Shown piece by piece: positions 5,401-64,000 of a DNA stretch of 64,000 nucleotides. A program made the translations under genes and the position numbers. The DNA is from Vicugna vicugna (Eukaryota): assembly GCA_013265495.1 (NCBI GenBank), contig MU058000.1:992001-1056000 (forward strand), written 5' to 3'. How positions within the stretch are numbered: the stretch's first letter is position 1; each line of letters starts with the position of its first letter. The notes under the pieces are model-generated. The model did not search any database and had not been told where the DNA came from. It saw nothing but the letters and a program-made list of their open reading frames with translations.

Positions 5401-7139
5401 TCATAGGTTGAAGTGACTCTTGACAAACTCCTAGTGGTGTGTTATCCAGAGCCTTTTAGAACAAGGACGTCTAATGCTTAATTTGAAGTTGTTTGTATTA
5501 CTGTGATATAAGCCCCCGTTCCCAGAGAATTGTTTGGATAAGTCAGCTTTTGCTGAAATAATGTTGCACAGCCCCCAAATCTCAGAGACTTTAAACAAAA
5601 ATATTCATTTTTTGTTCATGGGTCTGTGGGGTGAGCTGCAGTAACTGTGCTCTAGGCTGCAGGTCTGTTCCTGTGGCTTTTATTTGAGGGGGCAGCAGGA
5701 AGCTTCAGTCTTTCAGAAAGCCCTCTGTGTTCACAGGCAACACACATGTGCACTGCCTTAAGGCAGGGTTTTTGTTTGTTTCTCTGTTTACTTATTTATT
5801 TATTAATAAAATAAGGGAAGGGGTGAGTTGCTAATCAGGTTGCCACAGTATAAATCAGGATGACATGACAGGAGATCATCGATAGAGAACATTCAGCAGG
5901 AGTAGGAACACGAAGCCAGGTGACGATGACTGTGGAAGGTTCCACACACCCTCCCCCCTATCATTTGCAGAGATCTTGTACATGTGAAGTGATTTGCTTT
6001 TCTCCATCCATGCACTGAAAATTCACACCATCCTTTTTCTTTTTTAAGGTGCAGGAATCTCCAACTTACACATGTGCTTCATGTAAGCTTTGAGACCAGT
6101 AAAATTATTCACTCTGACCCCTACCTATAGAAAACCTGCCCCCATTCTTGAGCCCATCTCATTTTATACAGTCATTTTGTTCTTCCAAATAAAAATAATC
6201 TGATTGGTTCTCAGAGAATCACTCCTCAAACCCTTTGATGATTCTGTTTCCTATCTAGTAGTGTCACCACTGCCTCCAGATATAAATCTGGCTAAGAATT
6301 GGGAGAGACTTTTTTTTTGACTAAATACTGTCAACTATTGAATCTGAAAGCTCAGCTCTTGTTTTTTTTCCTACTTCTTTTACTGGCTCCACTAGGGAAC
6401 TCAAGAAAACAAAAACAAAGCAAAAACCCAAAGCTTATTGTATGTCTAGTTTTTCACCAGCTTTTTGCTGCTTCCTAAGCTCAAAGCAGTTCTTTTTTAG
6501 ATCGGAAGATTTGTAAGTTGGCAGTTTTTAATAAGGGTATCATCTGTACAGTCATTTTTAGAAAACGCACCCACCCTAATCATTTCTTTTCCCCAAATAG
6601 AAGCTTATTTTCTGTTTGATTTCCTTTTTCTTTTTAAGATTTTTTTGCATAAGAATCTTTTGCCTGATCTGATAAAGAGGAAAAGGAGAGTGCCAATATT
6701 CTTTTGCTTCCCAATGAGGTAGGGACAAAGAGAGGCTAAAGTATATTTTTTTCAAAAAGGAAGGGCAAGGTTGAAGGAAATAGATCAGTCCCGTGAGCTG
6801 ATCCCTTCCACCCTGAGGAGCTCAGCTCTGCATGGCCTTGTTATTGTAACCATTTTCCCTTCCCTGCAACTTTTCTTATGGAGAGAAGGGGATGGGGAAA
6901 GCCATTTCCGTCATTTTCCCTCATTATTGCCCTGTTTTCCCCTACAGCTGGCTCTTCTGGGGCTGAGTGCTCACGGCAAGAGTGGACTTCTCCTTTCTGA
7001 TGTTGCTGTCCCAAAGGACAGTTGTGTGTTGAAGAAAATATCCTATCAGGTTCTGGTCGGTTAGAATTGAATTAACCAGCTGAGAAAACTACTACTTGTA
7101 ACCAGTGAGCTTTTAAATCTGAGGCTTCCTTTTTCATGC

Positions 7140-7612: not shown

Positions 7613-9019
7613 CATGAGCAAAGAATTTCAGAGCCACAAAATATTTACAGCGTATCTTTTCCAGCCACGCTGGTTTGTAGATGGAGTTCCAGGAGAAGCT
7701 GAAGGCTTTCCTAAGGTCAGACAACTAGTTCTCGGTAGTTCTGGGATTAGAGCCCAGTTGTCTTAATTCTGTTCTTTCCATTATATTTGATGTAATTCTA
7801 GAGTCTAGATTACAATTAAAGGCGCATATTAAAATTCATCATTAACCTCTAAAGTGGCAGATTGAGTTTCAATAGACAGAATGCTAAAATTCCCAGTAGG
7901 GATAATAAGGAGTCAATTGGGAAGGAATGAAACTGCTGAAGAATAAAACAACTTCCCAGAGTCTCACTTTCCGTAGAAATGTATCTAACAAGAAACTTAT
8001 TCCAAGGCATGAACATTTAAAGGAAAGGGGTTTGACACAAGAGCAGAGAAGGATTGTCAAAGCTAAACTAGAAAATTTTTCCCTGTGTCATTCTGGGAGA
8101 TGCTGGAACAAAGAAACACAATGTCATTAACAAAGGAAGGAGGATTGGAAAGGGCTCAATGTTTTTACGCTTAAAATGTATGCTTTCTTCTTTCTAGGTT
8201 TATAAATATGACTTTGGAGGTGGAAATTTCTTACAAAACAACACGGTCTCTTCGCTTTACTTCTGTAACAGTAAATCTGAATTTAAATAACTCTAATCTT
8301 CACGTAGACCAAAGTACCTTTCATATATTTTTGAGTTGCTTGACTGCTTCTTTCTTGCAAGTTCCCTCTGTATAGCTGAGCTCTGTGTGGATTTTTAATT
8401 CTTTCCCCCCTTATTTCTCTCTCACAGCAACCTTTTCTTGTGGTGAGACAGGGCTGGGGAAAGGGATTTCTGTCATTTTCCTCACAACTTCCTTGGAACC
8501 TAGGGTAGTAGTTGAGAAACAAGGTGTGATGGAGGGCGATGAAGCAGGAGTGGGGACTTGTGAAAATACTGATCATTTATGGCTTAATTATTCTCTTAAA
8601 GGGAGAAAACCTGGGTCCCCCAAATTGACGGAAATTATATAAAGCTGAGTGGTCAAATTGGTGGAAGGGAACGAGGGAGCATGAGTAGTCGCAGACAAAT
8701 CTAGAGACAGAGGCAGGAGTTAACATTCTAGACGTTATTGGAGGAAATGTGCCTTTTCTGACTTTCTTCCCCCAAGACCCAGAGTAGCGGTGCCCAAGTA
8801 GAGAACTTTCCTGGAGTCTCCCTTCTTCCATCACCAAACCTGTGCCTTCCCTCCCGTCTACCCCGCCTCCCTCCCTTGCTTTCTTCTTTCCTTCCATCCT
8901 CCAGTGAATCTTCCTTCCTTATCTCTAAGATTGTTGAATATGTGTTTTAATGTCTATAGACCCATTTGACTTTATTTTAAATAGTACTTAATTTAAAAAT
9001 TTAATAATAATAATAACAG

Positions 9020-12069: not shown

Positions 12070-12196
12070 GGGGAGGGTATAGCTCAAGTGATAGAATGCA
12101 TGCTTAGCATGCATGAGGTCCTGGGTTCAATCCCCTGTACTTCCGCTAAGAATAAATAAACAAGTAAACCTAATTATCTCCCCCCTCCAATAAAAA
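12070..12196 (+). mobile_element. tRNA-derived camelid SINE (Vic-1-like)
   Basis: ggggagggtatagctcaagtg (A box) ... gaggtcctgggttcaatccc (B box), then aaataaa...acctaatta...ccccc and an A-tail; second copy inverted at 40634-40780. Confidence 0.9.
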
Positions 12197-16450: not shown

Positions 16451-17845
16451 GAAAAATGTCTTTTTTACAACAGTGGAGGAGTTTTTTTGTTTGACATTTT
16501 AATTGCATTGTCCATTTTTTTGTTTTTGTATTTTAAAGGGATTAAAAAATTCAGCCATTCTTCCATCTTGCCCTCTATCCCGGAGTCATTTTTTAACCTA
16601 ATCGTATGTGCAGCCCGTGTAGCCTCTTAGGGGTGATGGGGTAATATGATGTACTTGTTGTTTGAAGTAGTATTTCCTTGTATTTTCCCTCAAATGGTGA
16701 TGTTTAAAAATGTGTGTAATCTGGGACAAAATGACTCTTCTAAGCTTAGATACCAATTTGTAAAATGAGAATTTGGAGGACAGTCTGTTGCCAAAGCTAC
16801 TTTAGTCATACCACGAACCTTGCTTAGTATTCAGTCTTTATGATACATTCTCATTTGGAAGTGTTGGCCAACTGCGTGGGCTTTTATTTACTATAATATA
16901 CAAATTCCTCTCTTATCCAGAGGTCACTACTCTGGCAACCTCATCTACTTGGAACACTAGAGAAAATAAGGAAAACAAATAGTTTCTAAACGGCTAAACC
17001 AGATGCATCAAAGTCATTAAAAATAAATGTCATGTACTTTACTTAAAGGAGAGCCCCTGACTCAAAATGTGCTTGCTTTCATTAAAAAAAGTAATTTTAA
17101 CCAGCTTAGCTAATTGGTTTCCTTGCCTTCAACAAGGAAGAGAGAGGGGAAGTAGGGGTGGTAGGGAGAGAAATGAGGAAGAAGCTCACACGCTGTGTAG
17201 GATAAGACATAAAAACTGATGTTTGTGTATTTCTTTACATTGGAATCTCCTTTAGTGCAGTTAATGGTGTCCTATTTGTCTTTGTGTTCTCCGCGCTGTG
17301 CCTGACACATGACATTCAGTAAGCACTGTCTAAACAAACAAACAAAATAGATGTGACTAAGAGGCTGAGGGACATAGAAGAACCCCATGATGTTGAAAGA
17401 ATTAAAAAGGGTAGCGCTTACAGGCTACTCAGATTGTGCAGAGAGTTCTTCCTACTCCACTGCGCTGGACATTGAGAACATTGCTATTTAGGAAAAACAG
17501 GAGCTAGCATGAAGCAGGCGCTCGTGGTGGTTATCAGTGATGTGTGATTCAGGAAAGGTTACATTTTAGAACCCACCCAAGTATTTACTGCCTTGAAAAA
17601 TGATTTCTATTAAAACTCTCCTCCTCCCTCCCCTCCCCCCAACAAAATCTCCATTTCCATCTTTGGCTCTCTACCTAACAGTTTTACCTCTTCACATTTA
17701 AAAAATTCATTTATTCACCAAATGGCTTATTACCTGATAATGCTGCTAACATGACACATTTCTATAACATAAAGTAGATGTTAGAAGTAATTGTTTGTTC
17801 AACAGATTTGTGGAGGAAAAAAAATGCTCATCGTGATATATACAT

Positions 17846-18019
17846 ACCCATACCTTAAATTCTTTTTTTTTAGAATGAAAATTGTTATAGCATGTAAAGT
17901 TGCAAATCTGCAAAGCAGGTGTGAAAGATGAACTAATCTGACTGCTGTATCCCTCTGTTGCTTTTTGTTTCCTGTTGCAGATACATGCTTCCCTTTTCTT
18001 AACCCATACCTTAAATTCT
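17846..18019 (-). other. TSD-flanked ~138-bp insert with poly(A) remnant (candidate retrocopy)
   Basis: Exact 18-bp direct repeats acccataccttaaattct at 17846-17863 and 18002-18019; T9 run at 17863-17871. Confidence 0.55.
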
Positions 18020-18157
18020 AAAAAATGCTGTTTACCTTTAGTAAATGTGCACAATTTGTAAAGATGAACAGATATTTCTGCTCTTTTCACAATGATCTGT
18101 TCATTCAGTTTGTCCTCGATATGCTATTCTCATCAAGACTTTTATACTGCAAAGTGC

Positions 18158-18189: not shown

Positions 18190-18465
18190 GCAGGTGGCAC
18201 TCCCTGAGTGGTGATGTGTATGTGTGTGCGTGCACATGCCCCAGGAACTCTGCAAAAAGCTTTCACGGATTATTATTTAATTCTCACCACATGTAAGAAA
18301 ATAATTAAGTAAAACAAATGGTTTCTAAATGGCTAAACTAGATGCCATGGGGAATTGAGGCTTGCAGAGGTGAGTTTACAAAGTCCAAATTTACAAATCC
18401 AGTGAATGGCAGAGCTGAGACCTAAGTCTCTGTGGTCTGACTCCAAAATCTGTGCTAGGCTTCCT
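18188..18465 (-). mobile_element. MIR fragments
   Basis: ggattattatttaattctcac...ggggaattgaggcttgcagaggtgag...gaatggcagagctgagac...tctgactccaaa. Confidence 0.65.
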
Positions 18466-39334: not shown

Positions 39335-40633
39335 CTTTTATTCTTTTCCTTTTGTTTATTTCTCTCTGTCTCTCCCCCCCCCCACTTCCCTCTGTTTCTT
39401 CCTCTTTCTTTCCCTCTTTCCCGTCCTCATCCCTCTGGAACTCGGCCCTTTTAATCTGCAGCATCAAGTGTTCCCACCAGGAACACTTCCTTGGCTATTT
39501 TTGCCGATCTTCTGGCTATTCATTTTTCTCTTCCTGAAACTCCCATTACTTGTCCAACTTTTAAAAATTGTATCTTTCCTTTTTCATTTCTTTCTCTGAG
39601 TGCATTTCCTCTGGGTTGTGAGATATTTCTTGCAATTGATCTTCTAAGTCACTAATTTAGTTTTCAAAAATGCAATCCTTTTCTTGGATCAACAAATTCA
39701 CTTTACAAACATGAAAGTCACGTTGTCCTCCAAGAATCCTATCTCCCTTGAAGGTACCTAATTGGGAGTGTGTTTTCTTCTGCTTTTGGATTGCTGGGTT
39801 CCTTTGGGCGCATTGTTAATTCCCTTTGCCTGTGCTCTACTTAGCTTTCTAGTGAGCACTTTGAGAGGCAGCGAGCCATGGATGATGGTTGGCACGGCAG
39901 CACCTGTTCCTTCCTTGTGGGTCAAGGGTGAGCAGGTGACAAGCTGTCAGTCCTCTGGCGAACACCTGGAGGAAGCTTCTTTGCTCCTTGATTTCATTGG
40001 TTGCAACCATTCCCAGCCTCAGAGTCATGAGAGTCAAGGAGGAACCCAGTCCACCTGTTTAGTGCCTCTAACAGCTCTTCATAAAACAGGGAAATCTGGA
40101 GGTTTTCCCAAGACCTCAAACAGGAGCTGGAACCTCCTTTCTTCCTTGGATTCCAGGGATTTCTTCAGTACAAGCCCTGTCAGAGAATAAGAGATCCAGA
40201 ACCTTGCTCCAGGTCTCTTGGCTTCAGGTTGGCAGGATTTCCTTGGGTTCAGAGGGAAATTGTCCTGTATCTCTGCTGTCTTCGGGGACATCATCAGAAT
40301 CCCAGGCTTCAAATCCTCTTTCTATGATCAGTCACCCTGATGACCTCTTAGCTGATGTTTTTCTCAGGAGAAATAGATTAAGGTTACGTTGAAGCTGGAA
40401 AAGAAGAATGTCTGGAATTTATTTTAAGACCATGTAGAACTCTTACTGAATCTGAAAGCTCTCATCTCAACCTGTGTGAAAACTTTCTACTTTTATAATT
40501 AGAATATTGATTATGTATTGTTTTCAGTATTTCCTTATATTTTGTGACCACATTTATAGCAATTCTTCAGACTTAATTTCATACATTAATGATTTCAATG
40601 CCAATCATCAACAACCCTACCCCCTGCTTTTTT

Positions 40634-40780
40634 TTAAATTTTATTTTTGTTTTTTTTTTTGGGTGGGGGTAGGTAATTAGGTTTATTTATTTATTTATGG
40701 TTAGAGGAGGTACTGGGAATTGAACCCAGGACCTTGTATATGCTAAGCATGTGCTCTACCACTCGAGCTATACCCTCCCC
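40634..40780 (-). mobile_element. tRNA-derived camelid SINE (Vic-1-like)
   Basis: Reverse complement of the 12070 element (gggaattgaacccaggacc...tgctaagcat...gagctataccctcccc); 13-bp TSD cccctgctttttt at 40621-40633 and 40784-40796. Confidence 0.92.
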
Positions 40781-43076: not shown

Positions 43077-43167
43077 TTATTTTATTCTTTTTTATGGCTG
43101 AGTAGTATTCCATTGTATAAATATGCCACAGCTTCTTTATTCAGTCATCTGTTGGTGGACATTTAGG
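43077..43167 (-). mobile_element. Isolated internal LINE-1 fragment inside a MIR
   Basis: ~90 bp matching 44300-44389 with 4 mismatches; no tail. Confidence 0.85.
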
Positions 43168-43827
43168 TACATAAAGATTACTCAAGAGTATTAGCTATTA
43201 TTTTTATTTCTCTTTTATTGTTATGTTTAGTATTACATTAATAAATTATAGTTAGAAATCTTGTCTGAAAGCAGTGAAAACCAAACTTCATCTGGTTTAA
43301 GCAAAAGAAGGAGAATCTACTAGACTGTAAATATATATATGTAACTAAAAAGTCAAGGAGTAGACCAGACTTTAGGAATAGTTGGTTTGGGATTTATAAA
43401 GTGTGACAAGATGTCTTTTTTTCCCCCTTTTTTTTATGAGAGATAATTATTTCATTCCCAATCTCCATGTGGTGGCAAGATTGTGTAGATCAGAATATGC
43501 CACTTCAAAATATACCACTCTGGATACAGATTATTTTGAGCTACATGCAACTGAGAAAAAGCAGACACAGGATGAACTTTCTGCTGTCCCCCTGTCTGCC
43601 TGAAAATGTATCATAAATTCTCTTTATGAAGGTTCCCCCACAGCCCCCCACCCAGTTCTAATACCAGGAAAAGGATGACAACCTTATCACTGGAGATAAG
43701 AAATAACCTACACAAGCAAACCTTATGACTCGCCCTCACCTATGATTAGTTTCCCCGTATGTTTGCCTTCCTCCAGTTTGCTGCCCCTAGAAGCTCAGAG
43801 TCCCTTTCCTTTGTCCTGTCACTTCTC

Positions 43828-43879: not shown

Positions 43880-45213
43880 TAAATTGAAGTATAGTCAGTT
43901 TGCAATGTTGTGTCAATTTCTGGTGTACAGCATAATGTTTCGGTCATACATATGCATACGTATATTTGTTGTCACGTTCTTTATTATTATCGGTTACTAC
44001 AAGATATTGAATATTGTTCTCTGTGCTATACAGAGAAACCTTGTTGTTTATCTATTTTATATATAGTAGTTAATATTTGCAAATCTTGAACTCCCAGTTT
44101 ATCCCTTCCCACCCTCTTTACCCCCGGTAACCATTACTATGTCTTTGAGTCTGTTTCTGTTTTGTAGATAAGTTCATTAGTGTCTTCTTTTTTTAGATTC
44201 CACATATGAGTGATATTATATGGTATTTTTCTTTCTCTTTCTGGCTTAGTTTCACTTAGAATGACAATCTCAGGTCCATCCATGTTGCTGCAAATGGCGT
44301 TATTTTATTCTTTTTTATGGCTGAGGAGTATTCCATTGTATAAATATACCACAGCTTCTTTATTCAGTCATCTATTGATGGACATTTAGTCTGTTTCCAT
44401 GTCTTGGCTATTGTAAATTGTGCTGCTATGAACATTGGGGTGCATGTATCTTTTCAAATTAGAGATCCCTCCAGCTATATGCCCAGGAGTGGGATTGCTG
44501 GATCATATGGTAAGTCTATTTTCAGTCCTTTTGAGTAATCTGCATACTGTTTTCCATAACAGCTGCACCAAACTACATTCCCACCAACAGTGTAGGAGGA
44601 TTCCCTTTTCTCCACACCCTCTCCAGCAATTATTGTTTGTGGACTTTTGAATGATGACCATTCTGACTGGTGTAAGGTGATACCTCATTGTAGTTTTGAT
44701 TTGTATTTCTCTGATAATTAGTGATATTGAGCATTTTTTCATATGCCTATTGGCCATCTGTATGTCTTCAGTGGAGAATTGCTTATTCATGTCTTCTGCC
44801 CAGTTTTGGATTGGGTGGTTTGTTTTTGTTGTTGTTGTTATTAAGTTATATGAGCTGTTTATATATTCTGGAAATTAAGCCCTCGTCAGTCTCATCATTT
44901 GCAAATATGTTCTCTTATTCTGTAGAATGTCATTTTGTTTTGCTTGTGGTTTCCTTTGCTGTGCAAAAGCTTATGTTTAATTAGGTCCCATTTGTTTATT
45001 TTTGCTTTTATTTCTGTTGCCTGGGTAGACTGCTCTAGAAAAACATTGCTGAGATTTATGTCAGAAAATGTTTTGCCTATGTTTTCTTCTAGGAGGTTTA
45101 TAGTATCTTGTCTTATATTTAAGTCTCTAAGCCATTTTGAGTTTATTTTTGTGTATGGTGTGAGGGAGTGTTCTAACTTCATTGATTTACATGTAGCTAT
45201 CCAGTTTTTCCAA
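43832..45213 (-). mobile_element. 5'-truncated young LINE-1 (~1.4 kb)
   Basis: ORF2 C-terminal peptides plus 3' UTR and patterned tail; 12-bp TSD cacttctcttta at 43820-43831 and 45214-45225. Confidence 0.97.
44503..45213 (-). pseudogene. LINE-1 ORF2 C-terminal fragment, frameshifted
   Basis: ORFs 44895..45344 (LTPYTKINSKWLRDLNI...KINKWDLIK) and 44503..44790 ([10 protein letters not shown]...[18 protein letters not shown], the CCHC motif). Confidence 0.95.
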
Positions 45214-63452: not shown

Positions 63453-64000
63453 CTACAGCCATTATGGGAAACAGTACTGAGATTGTTCAAAAGACTAAAG
63501 ATAGACTTACCATTTGATCAGCAATCCCACTCCTGGGCATGTATCCAGAGGAAACTCTAATTCAAAAAGATATATGCACCCCAATGTTCACAGCAAAACG
63601 ATATACAATAGCTAGGACATGGTAGTGACCTAAATGTCCTTCGACAGATGACTGGATAAAGAAGCTGTGGTATATTTATACAAAGGAATACTACTCAACC
63701 ATAAAAAAGAATAAAATAACACCATTTGCAGCAACATGGATGGACCTAGAGATCGTCATTCTAAGTAAAATAAGCCAGAAAGATAAAGAAAAATACCACA
63801 TGATATCACTCATATGTGGAATCTAAAAAAACAAAAAAAGGACACTATGAACTCATCTACAAAACAGAAACAGACTTGCAGGCAGTAAACAATCTTATAG
63901 TTACCAGGGAGAGGGAGTGGGAAGGGATAAATTTGGGAGTTTGAGATTTATAAATGTTAGCCAGTATATATAAAAATAGATTTAAAAAAGTTTCTACTGT
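63453..64000 (+). mobile_element. Young LINE-1, ORF2 end and 3' UTR, runs off the window
   Basis: cagcaatcccactcctgggcat...gcagcaacatggatggacctagag...cactcatatgtggaatctaaaaa; same family as 43832-45213 in opposite orientation. Confidence 0.95.

What the first reader, a model, noticed from the sequence alone, without database searches (positions are those of the whole stretch)
17846..18019. Unrecognised ~130-nt insert with hallmarks of L1-mediated retroposition
Seen: an exact 18-bp direct repeat (acccataccttaaattct, 17846-17863 and 18002-18019) brackets 138 bp that begin with a T-run, which is a minus-strand A-tail. The reconstructed empty site reads TTCT/AAAA. Known: TTTT/AA variants, 7-20 bp TSDs and an A-tail mark L1 target-primed reverse transcription. 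The body resembles no SINE or L1 I recognise and has no AATAAA. Inference: a retrocopy of a small cellular RNA or mRNA fragment, an orphan 3' transduction, or an undescribed short SINE.
Basis: partly seen in the sequence, partly recalled or inferred. Interest (0 to 1): 0.7.

Follow-up and report, generated by a model that had tools for sequence, protein, structure and literature searches.

The report
Short one-off L1-made RNA copy
This 138-base insert is an old, single DNA copy of the last ~130 bases of a polyadenylated RNA from another place in the same genome, pasted in by the LINE-1 machinery: an ordinary kind of genomic fossil, not a new mobile element.

Summary
In detail: an exact 18-bp repeat brackets 138 bp, with a T-run after copy 1 and a TTCT/AA nick; 0 of 150 simulated windows gave this pattern at 14 bp or more. 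Contigs of public runs add three things. (1) A second locus, seen in 2 of 4 runs, matches 17870-17923 (2 differences) and then runs on without a T-run into sequence that is U/GU-rich on the RNA strand: the A-tail is untemplated and the locus looks like a real poly(A) site. (2) Only two loci share the body, so it is no SINE family; it has no Pol III boxes and no Rfam match. (3) All 4 runs carry the insert, one of them 3% diverged, so it is old and no empty site was seen. Best reading: a 5'-truncated L1-made retrocopy of a host Pol II transcript end (0.68); an orphan 3' transduction is not excluded (0.2). The source gene is unidentified: the source contig on the RNA's 5' side was not shown. A plus-strand 3' splice-site pattern (about 2% chance) hints at an antisense transcript. 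Known kind, low interest.

The parts
17846..17863 (.). Target-site duplication, copy 1; its last four bases (TTCT) are the 3' end left by the L1-type nick on the + strand, the primer for reverse transcription
   Evidence: Identical to 18002-18019. TTCT/AA is the nick site of several de novo human L1 and Alu insertions in Table 1 of PMC4859970 (passages); consensus given there as YYYY/RR.
17864..17869 (-). Untemplated A-tail remnant (6 nt here, 7 in X1, X9, X14)
   Evidence: The second locus diverges left of 17870 and has no T-run there (table 7); one extra T in three runs (table 4).
17870..18001 (-). Copied RNA end, 132 nt including up to two templated A at the cleavage site; 5' end at 18001
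   Evidence: 17870-17923 matches an 880-nt contig of another locus in X9 and X14 with 2 differences; 17894-17935 (X14) or 17894-17931 (X9) is a collapsed contig at about twice single-copy depth (table 8). A source match for 17936-18001 was not shown.
17884..17889 (-). Possible degenerate poly(A) hexamer, one mismatch from TATAAA, 18 nt before the end
   Evidence: variant list recalled. One of the two source differences is unlocated in 17870-17892, so the source may or may not have the intact variant. Weak.
17932..17980 (+). 3' splice-site-like pattern on the strand opposite the RNA: branch-point-like words, 51-nt AG-free zone, 80% pyrimidine tract, CAG at 17978-17980
   Evidence: 9 of 9,305 AG sites in the window (this one included) pass the same filter; about 0.017 expected per 138 nt on two strands. 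Thresholds were set from this site, so post hoc.
18002..18019 (.). Target-site duplication, copy 2, followed by six A (18020-18025), the far side of the nick
   Evidence: One substitution at 18003 in X19 (table 3).

Best explanation
A single, old, 5'-truncated retrocopy of a host RNA polymerase II transcript. A transcript from another locus was cleaved and polyadenylated at a site without a canonical hexamer but with a U/GU-rich downstream element. L1 ORF2p, acting in trans, nicked the + strand at TTCT/AA, primed on the poly(A) tail, copied about 130 nt and stopped; the second nick 18 nt away made the duplication. The tail has since shrunk to 6-7 untemplated A. Shown: TSD, nick word, tail absent from the second locus, two loci only, presence in all 4 runs laid. 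Inferred: L1 as the enzyme, Pol II poly(A) site, 5' truncation, neutrality. Which transcript it was (3' UTR, lncRNA, antisense RNA ending in an intron, or intronic polyadenylation product) is not known; the plus-strand splice-acceptor pattern slightly favours an antisense RNA crossing an exon-intron border. The wider claim, an L1-made copy of a polyadenylated RNA from that locus by either this route or transduction, I put at about 0.9.
For: TSD 18/18, T-run and nick word. Second locus in X9 and X14 at single-copy depth (14.1 against 11.3 and 10.7; 8.6 against 10.2, 6.3 and 6.9), matching up to the tail and then going on as unrelated DNA (tables 7, 8). Read on the RNA strand, the first 14 loose letters are 9 U, 3 G, 2 C and no A (counted by eye from table 7), and the RNA ends in UA; PMC5546720 (passages) describes a GU-rich stretch followed by 3 or more U within 40 nt downstream, UA or CA before the cut, and 10-20% non-canonical hexamers. 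Only two templated A at the site, so internal priming is unlikely. TSD of 4-20 bp, 5' truncation and A-tail are the stated hallmarks of processed pseudogenes (PMC4859970); L1 copies any oligo(A)-tailed RNA (PMC5322556 Introduction). Differences in X19 fall equally in body (4 of 126) and in TSD2 plus flank (4 of 139), as for unconstrained DNA.
Against: No empty site seen in any of 4 runs, so the pre-insertion state is not shown. The second locus appeared in 2 of 4 runs only (not X1, not X19), and only for the tail-side 54-66 nt; nothing shows that 17936-18001 comes from the same locus. No exact poly(A) hexamer of 18 variants near the end; the U/GU-rich stretch lies at about +3 to +16, closer than the 10-30 nt cited. 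No spliced junction was shown. The source gene is unnamed. Contig depth is a rough guide only.
Confidence: 0.68

Rival explanations
1. Orphan 3' transduction: an L1 upstream of the source read through its own weak poly(A) signal, ended at this site, and the copy was truncated before reaching L1 sequence. An L1 lying antisense in an intron would give just such an antisense exon-intron piece.
For: Same anatomy as the best explanation. A 212-nt DMD insertion first published as a retroposed novel non-coding gene was later classed as an orphan transduction (Table 1 and reference titles of PMC4859970). The plus-strand acceptor pattern fits.
Against: No L1 sequence, second A-run or source TSD inside the insert; best match to the L1-like pieces of this window is 28 nt at 82%. 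The source's upstream side was not seen, so this is untested rather than disfavoured; the lower weight rests on priors.
Confidence: 0.2
2. Type-1 snoRNA retroposon or copy of another small RNA: an H/ACA snoRNA with a few extra 3' bases and a short A-tail.
For: Size about 130 nt, an ANANNA word at RNA position 63 and ACA 13 nt before the end; PMC1687206 describes snoRNA plus 0-9 bases, short tail and 8-19 bp TSD (passages). The 5' domain folds better than 296 of 300 shuffles for the H box at 63.
Against: No Rfam family near its gathering score. The H plus ACA pattern occurs in 1,042 of 9,826 random window slices (10.6%). Only 29% of either domain pairs, the 3' domain is no better than shuffles (93 of 300 as good), and the free fold pairs across the supposed hinge. 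Whole-strand fold z -1.58 and -1.22.
Confidence: 0.04
3. DNA-templated insertion at a break (polymerase-theta type), with the T-run and adjacent five bases made by fold-back on the target rather than from a poly(A) tail.
For: 17866-17876 is an exact 11-nt inverted copy of 18015-18025, across the nick; that 5-mer precedes 32 of 12,900 AA words.
Against: The second locus already supplies the five bases and two T (alignment reaches 17870), so no fold-back is needed; an 18-bp duplication at an endonuclease word with the T-run on the nicked strand is the TPRT geometry.
Confidence: 0.04
4. Member of an undescribed short SINE family.
For: SINE-like size, TSD and tail.
Against: Collapsed contig depth about twice single copy (25.1 in X9, 20.5 in X14), one other locus, and that locus untailed. 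No A or B box on either strand, while the same patterns found a B box in 2 of 2 and an A box in 1 of 2 tRNA-SINE copies of the window. No second copy in the window.
Confidence: 0.02
5. Chance repeat or local duplication; no insertion.
For: No empty site was observed; 1 of 200 simulations gave an 18-mer repeat.
Against: Joint pattern 0 of 150; homology to the second locus ends exactly at the T-run.
Confidence: 0.02

Closest known systems
5'-truncated processed pseudogenes and retrocopies of non-coding Pol II transcripts (PMC4859970, PMC7692494; passages seen)
   Same: TSD in the 4-20 bp range, endonuclease-type nick, 3' A-tail absent from the source, 5' truncation, single source locus.
   Different: No coding sequence (0 Pfam families for the two open minus-strand frames) and no shown exon-exon junction, so it cannot be called 'processed'; source gene unnamed; no canonical hexamer.
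Orphan 3' transductions, e.g. the 212-nt DMD insertion (Table 1 of PMC4859970)
   Same: Short unique DNA plus A-tail and TSD at an endonuclease site, no L1 sequence.
   Different: The defining upstream source L1 has not been looked for, as that side of the source was not shown.
Type-1 snoRNA retroposons (PMC1687206, passages)
   Same: Length, short tail, TSD length.
   Different: No Rfam snoRNA match, no two-hairpin fold.
Tailless retropseudogenes (PMC5322556, abstract and Introduction)
   Same: L1-made short copies of cellular RNA with TSD.
   Different: This one has an untemplated A-tail and a normal nick word.

Membership tests
L1-mediated retrocopy (TPRT product) | Target-site duplication of 4-20 bp | tested here: met
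   18 of 18; chance 1 of 200 alone, 0 of 150 with T-run.
L1-mediated retrocopy (TPRT product) | Nick at a YYYY/RR word on the strand carrying the T-run | tested here: met
   TTCT/AA; same word in PMC4859970 Table 1.
L1-mediated retrocopy (TPRT product) | 3' A-tail not encoded at the source | tested here: met
   Second-locus contigs in X9 and X14 diverge at 17870 with no T-run (table 7).
L1-mediated retrocopy (TPRT product) | Source locus elsewhere in the genome | tested here: met
   Met for 17870-17935 in 2 of 4 runs; not shown for 17936-18001 (table 8).
L1-mediated retrocopy (TPRT product) | Empty site in an outgroup | not testable with these tools
   All 4 runs laid hold the insert; no outgroup genome is held.
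Processed pseudogene (strict) | Loss of introns against the source | tested here: inconclusive
   Copy and source part or differ at 17936 (X14) and 17932 (X9); substitution or exon junction cannot be told apart.
Orphan 3' transduction | Source L1 upstream of the transduced DNA, in sense | not testable with these tools
   Source contig on the RNA's 5' side not listed.
Orphan 3' transduction | No L1 sequence in the insert | tested here: inconclusive
   No match to the L1-like pieces of this window beyond 28 nt at 82%; no repeat library was available.
SINE | Pol III A and B boxes / tRNA, 7SL or 5S head | tested here: not met
   No box on either strand; no Rfam tRNA, 7SL or 5S match.
SINE | Many dispersed copies | tested here: not met
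   Two loci by contig structure and depth in X9 and X14; one unbroken contig in X1. Copies under 80% alike would be missed.
Type-1 H/ACA snoRNA retroposon | Match to a known snoRNA or hairpin-hinge-hairpin-tail fold | tested here: not met
Tailless retropseudogene | No oligo(A) tail | tested here: not met
   6-7 untemplated A.

The most novel reading that the evidence does not exclude
The insert is not randomly truncated but a full-length copy of a short polyadenylated intron-start fragment: the RNA strand begins TAAGAA, which would be positions +2 to +7 of a consensus splice donor if the source has G before it, and ends at a poly(A) site 130 nt into the intron. It would be a germline fossil of an RNA cut at a 5' splice site and polyadenylated within the same intron, a substrate class I have not seen described for L1 (no search was aimed at this). 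A TRAG start has a background of 1,217 in 128,000 positions (0.95%), noticed post hoc; the base before it in the source is unseen.
Probability: 0.04. Interest if true: 0.5.

Novelty: new member of a known kind. Interest (0 to 1): 0.14.

Why it matters
Little in itself. It is a clean presence/absence marker that predates the split between the window's lineage and a relative 3% diverged, and a fossil record that a poly(A) site without a canonical hexamer was used in the germline. If the source proves to be an antisense or intron-terminated RNA it adds one more case, beside similar unchecked notes on this genome, that L1 samples unannotated transcripts which protein-based retrocopy screens miss.

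Tried and rejected
Whole-genome search: no genome is held for this window. Rfam: 10, 2 and 5 matches; the only ones at gathering score are the two tRNA-like SINE heads at 12073 and 40705. Body against the window: best non-self E 0.26. A 20-nt body pattern gave 4 metagenome loci, all 20-nt chance matches without extension, 50-64% GC, and 0 viral loci. Pfam on 5 translated frames (2 in the body, 1 across it, 2 L1-like): nothing near a cut-off; the other ORFs of the 63 listed were not scanned, and I recognised no exon by eye, so the host gene context is unknown. Expression: no RNA holder listed; X19 and X20 are RNA by guess only, and X19's contig runs through TSD2 into the flank, so it says nothing on expression. 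Only 4 of the 24 runs listed could be laid (X1, X9, X14, X19); organisms B, C and D and X20 were not examined. Missing cover: no source contig in X1 or X19 and none for the source's other side in X9 or X14; the tool drops human-like contigs without notice, which would fit a conserved exon or UTR next to the source, but a hole proves nothing. Earlier findings by sequence, near place, relatives and words returned nothing. Paper searches listed no paper on this locus; only listings were read for most, no supplement was opened, and the camelid repeat library of PMC8605555 and Dfam were not seen, so a catalogued repeat fragment is not formally excluded. Large protein searches were not run: the putative exon part is 21 nt and no frame was favoured.

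Full report
Observation. The two 18-mers at 17846-17863 and 18002-18019 are identical and cannot be extended; 138 bp lie between them, opening with 8 T. It is the longest exact direct repeat with 40-1000 bp spacing in the window. In 200 order-3 Markov simulations one reached 18. With a run of six T or A at the inner edge, 0 of 150 order-4 simulations reached 14 or more, though 49 of 150 did at 10 or more; in the real window this scan finds this element alone. Rejoining the flanks gives TTCT followed by six A on the + strand. The T-run sits on the strand whose 3' end is TTCT, which is the geometry of target-primed reverse transcription with a minus-strand RNA. TTCT/AA is the nick of several de novo human insertions, and TSDs of 4-20 bp are called a hallmark, in PMC4859970 (passages).

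Setting. No genome is held. The window reads as repeat-rich non-coding mammalian DNA with two tRNA-derived SINE copies, 82.7% alike, and L1-like pieces; the repeat labels L1 and MIR are my recall, not from a library.

What the body is not. No Rfam family comes near its gathering score. No Pol III A or B box lies on either strand, while the same recalled patterns found a B box in both SINE copies and an A box in one. There is no second copy in the window (best E 0.26) and no real match to its SINE, L1-like or MIR-like pieces. The two open minus-strand frames match no Pfam family. Neither strand folds clearly better than shuffles (z -1.58 and -1.22). An H/ACA reading was tested because PMC1687206 (passages) describes snoRNA copies of this size: the box pattern is common (1,042 of 9,826 slices), only 29% of each domain pairs, and the 3' domain is unremarkable, although the 5' domain for the H box at 63 beat 296 of 300 shuffles. 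A 20-nt pattern found 4 chance loci in metagenomes and 0 in viral contigs.

Public runs. Of 24 runs listed, 18 DNA runs from six organism labels hold 0.77-0.92 of 13 sampled words, two runs guessed to be RNA hold 0.39, and four hold none. I laid four (X1, X9, X14, X19) on 17650-18140. All four carry the insert and none shows a joint that skips it. X1 spans both TSDs in one 402-nt contig (4 substitutions, 1 gap). X9 and X14 differ from the window at 5 and 3 fixed places in 491. X19 covers 17876-18140 with 8 substitutions and 1 insertion in 265 nt (3.0%, 95% interval 1.3-5.9), four in the body and four in TSD2 and flank. The insertion is therefore older than the split between the window's lineage and X19's. 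X19's organism is not on record; 3% would fit the other camelid tribe (inference; a listing abstract, PMC13751797, gives more than 11 million years for camelids). An intact 18-bp TSD at 3-6% pair divergence has probability 0.58-0.33, so it does not imply youth.

The second locus. In X9 and X14 an 880-nt contig matches 17870-17923 with 2 differences and then continues leftward as unrelated DNA, with the same 30-letter loose end in both runs (tables 7, 8). A short collapsed contig (17894-17931 in X9, 17894-17935 in X14) has about twice single-copy depth (25.1 against 11.3, 10.7 and 14.1; 20.5 against 10.2, 6.3, 6.9 and 8.6). Depth is a rough guide, but the contig structure is that of two loci. 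The second has no T-run where the window has its tail, so the tail is untemplated except for up to two A, and the window is the copy. On the RNA strand the end is UA, and the next 14 source letters are 9 U, 3 G and 2 C, a GU-rich stretch ending in five U (counted by eye). PMC5546720 (passages) describes such a downstream element, UA or CA at the cut, and 10-20% non-canonical hexamers. No exact hexamer of 18 recalled variants lies within 45 nt of the end; TATAAA with one mismatch lies at -18; AATAAA and ATTAAA are two or more changes away. By the contig boundaries one source difference must be at 17893; the other is unlocated. Copy and source differ at 2 of 66 or 3 of 67 sites (3.0-4.5%, wide intervals), in line with an insertion about as old as, or somewhat older than, the X19 split.

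What is missing. No source contig was listed for the RNA's 5' side, and none at all in X1 or X19. The tool drops human-like contigs without notice. A conserved exon or UTR beside the source would explain both gaps, since in X1 the copy contig is unbroken and an unbroken source contig would be dropped whole; this is inference and a hole proves nothing. Homology could also end near 17935, as at an exon junction. Two motif-level hints point in different directions. On the + strand, 17932-17980 looks like an intron end: 9 of 9,305 AG sites pass the same filter, about 0.017 expected per 138 nt (thresholds post hoc), which would make the RNA antisense across an exon border. On the RNA strand, the 5' end begins like a splice donor from position +2 (background 0.95%), which would make it a sense intron-start fragment. 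Neither is tested.

Mechanism and rivals. Most likely (0.68) L1 ORF2p took, in trans, a host Pol II transcript ending at this poly(A) site, nicked at TTCT/AA, copied about 130 nt and stopped; L1's readiness to copy any oligo(A)-tailed RNA is described in PMC5322556 (abstract and Introduction), and retrocopies of non-coding RNAs with the same hallmarks in PMC7692494 (passages). An orphan 3' transduction (0.2) has the same anatomy and needs the unseen upstream side to decide; the 212-nt DMD insertion shows that the two can be confused. Small-RNA copy (0.04), DNA-templated insertion (0.04), new SINE (0.02) and chance (0.02) are disfavoured for the reasons above. Function of the copy: most likely none; body and flank have diverged equally in X19.

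Verdict. A real, well-formed L1-type insertion with its source half-found: a new member of a known and common kind. Earlier notes on this genome report similar one-off copies; they are unchecked and were not used as support. Six paper searches listed nothing on this locus; supplements, the camelid repeat library of PMC8605555 (passages only) and Dfam were not seen. PMC7305198 and PMC9374477 (passages) gave no tribe-level date. Interest 0.14.

Noticed in passing
window 17866-17876 and 18015-18025: Exact 11-nt inverted repeat: the RNA's 3' end plus tail reads the same as the nicked strand across the nick; that 5-mer precedes 32 of 12,900 AA words. The source supplies these bases, so probably coincidence helped by shared T-richness.
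   Followed up: partly
window 16964-17006 and 18303-18345: 43-nt local duplicate, 38 of 43 identical, same strand, 1.3 kb apart; the second copy seems to interrupt a MIR-like relic (label recalled). Possibly an old templated insertion.
   Followed up: no
window 6854-6919 and 8414-8481: 68-nt local duplicate at 81% identity, 1.56 kb apart, same strand.
   Followed up: no
window 43077-43168: Isolated ~90-nt piece 95.6% identical to 44300-44389 and 92.4% to 63628-63719, both inside L1-like 3' regions; a short internal L1 fragment 1.2 kb from a near-identical copy.
   Followed up: no
window 12070-12196 and 40654-40780: Two tRNA-derived SINE copies, 82.7% alike; the second is bracketed by a 13-nt repeat at 40621 and 40784. 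The camelid repeat survey PMC8605555 lists nearly all SINEs as MIRs (passages).
   Followed up: partly
window 18048, 18049, 18060: The window differs from X1, X9 and X14 at 18048-18049 but agrees with the distant X19 there; at 18060 it differs from all four runs (table 3).
   Followed up: no
window 17697-17733: 37-nt AT-rich match with 5 differences to another locus in X1 and X9 (tables 7, 8); chance or an old repeat.
   Followed up: no
window 18028-18104: Two adjacent imperfect inverted repeats (24 nt at 79%, 17 nt at 82%) just right of the insertion site.
   Followed up: no
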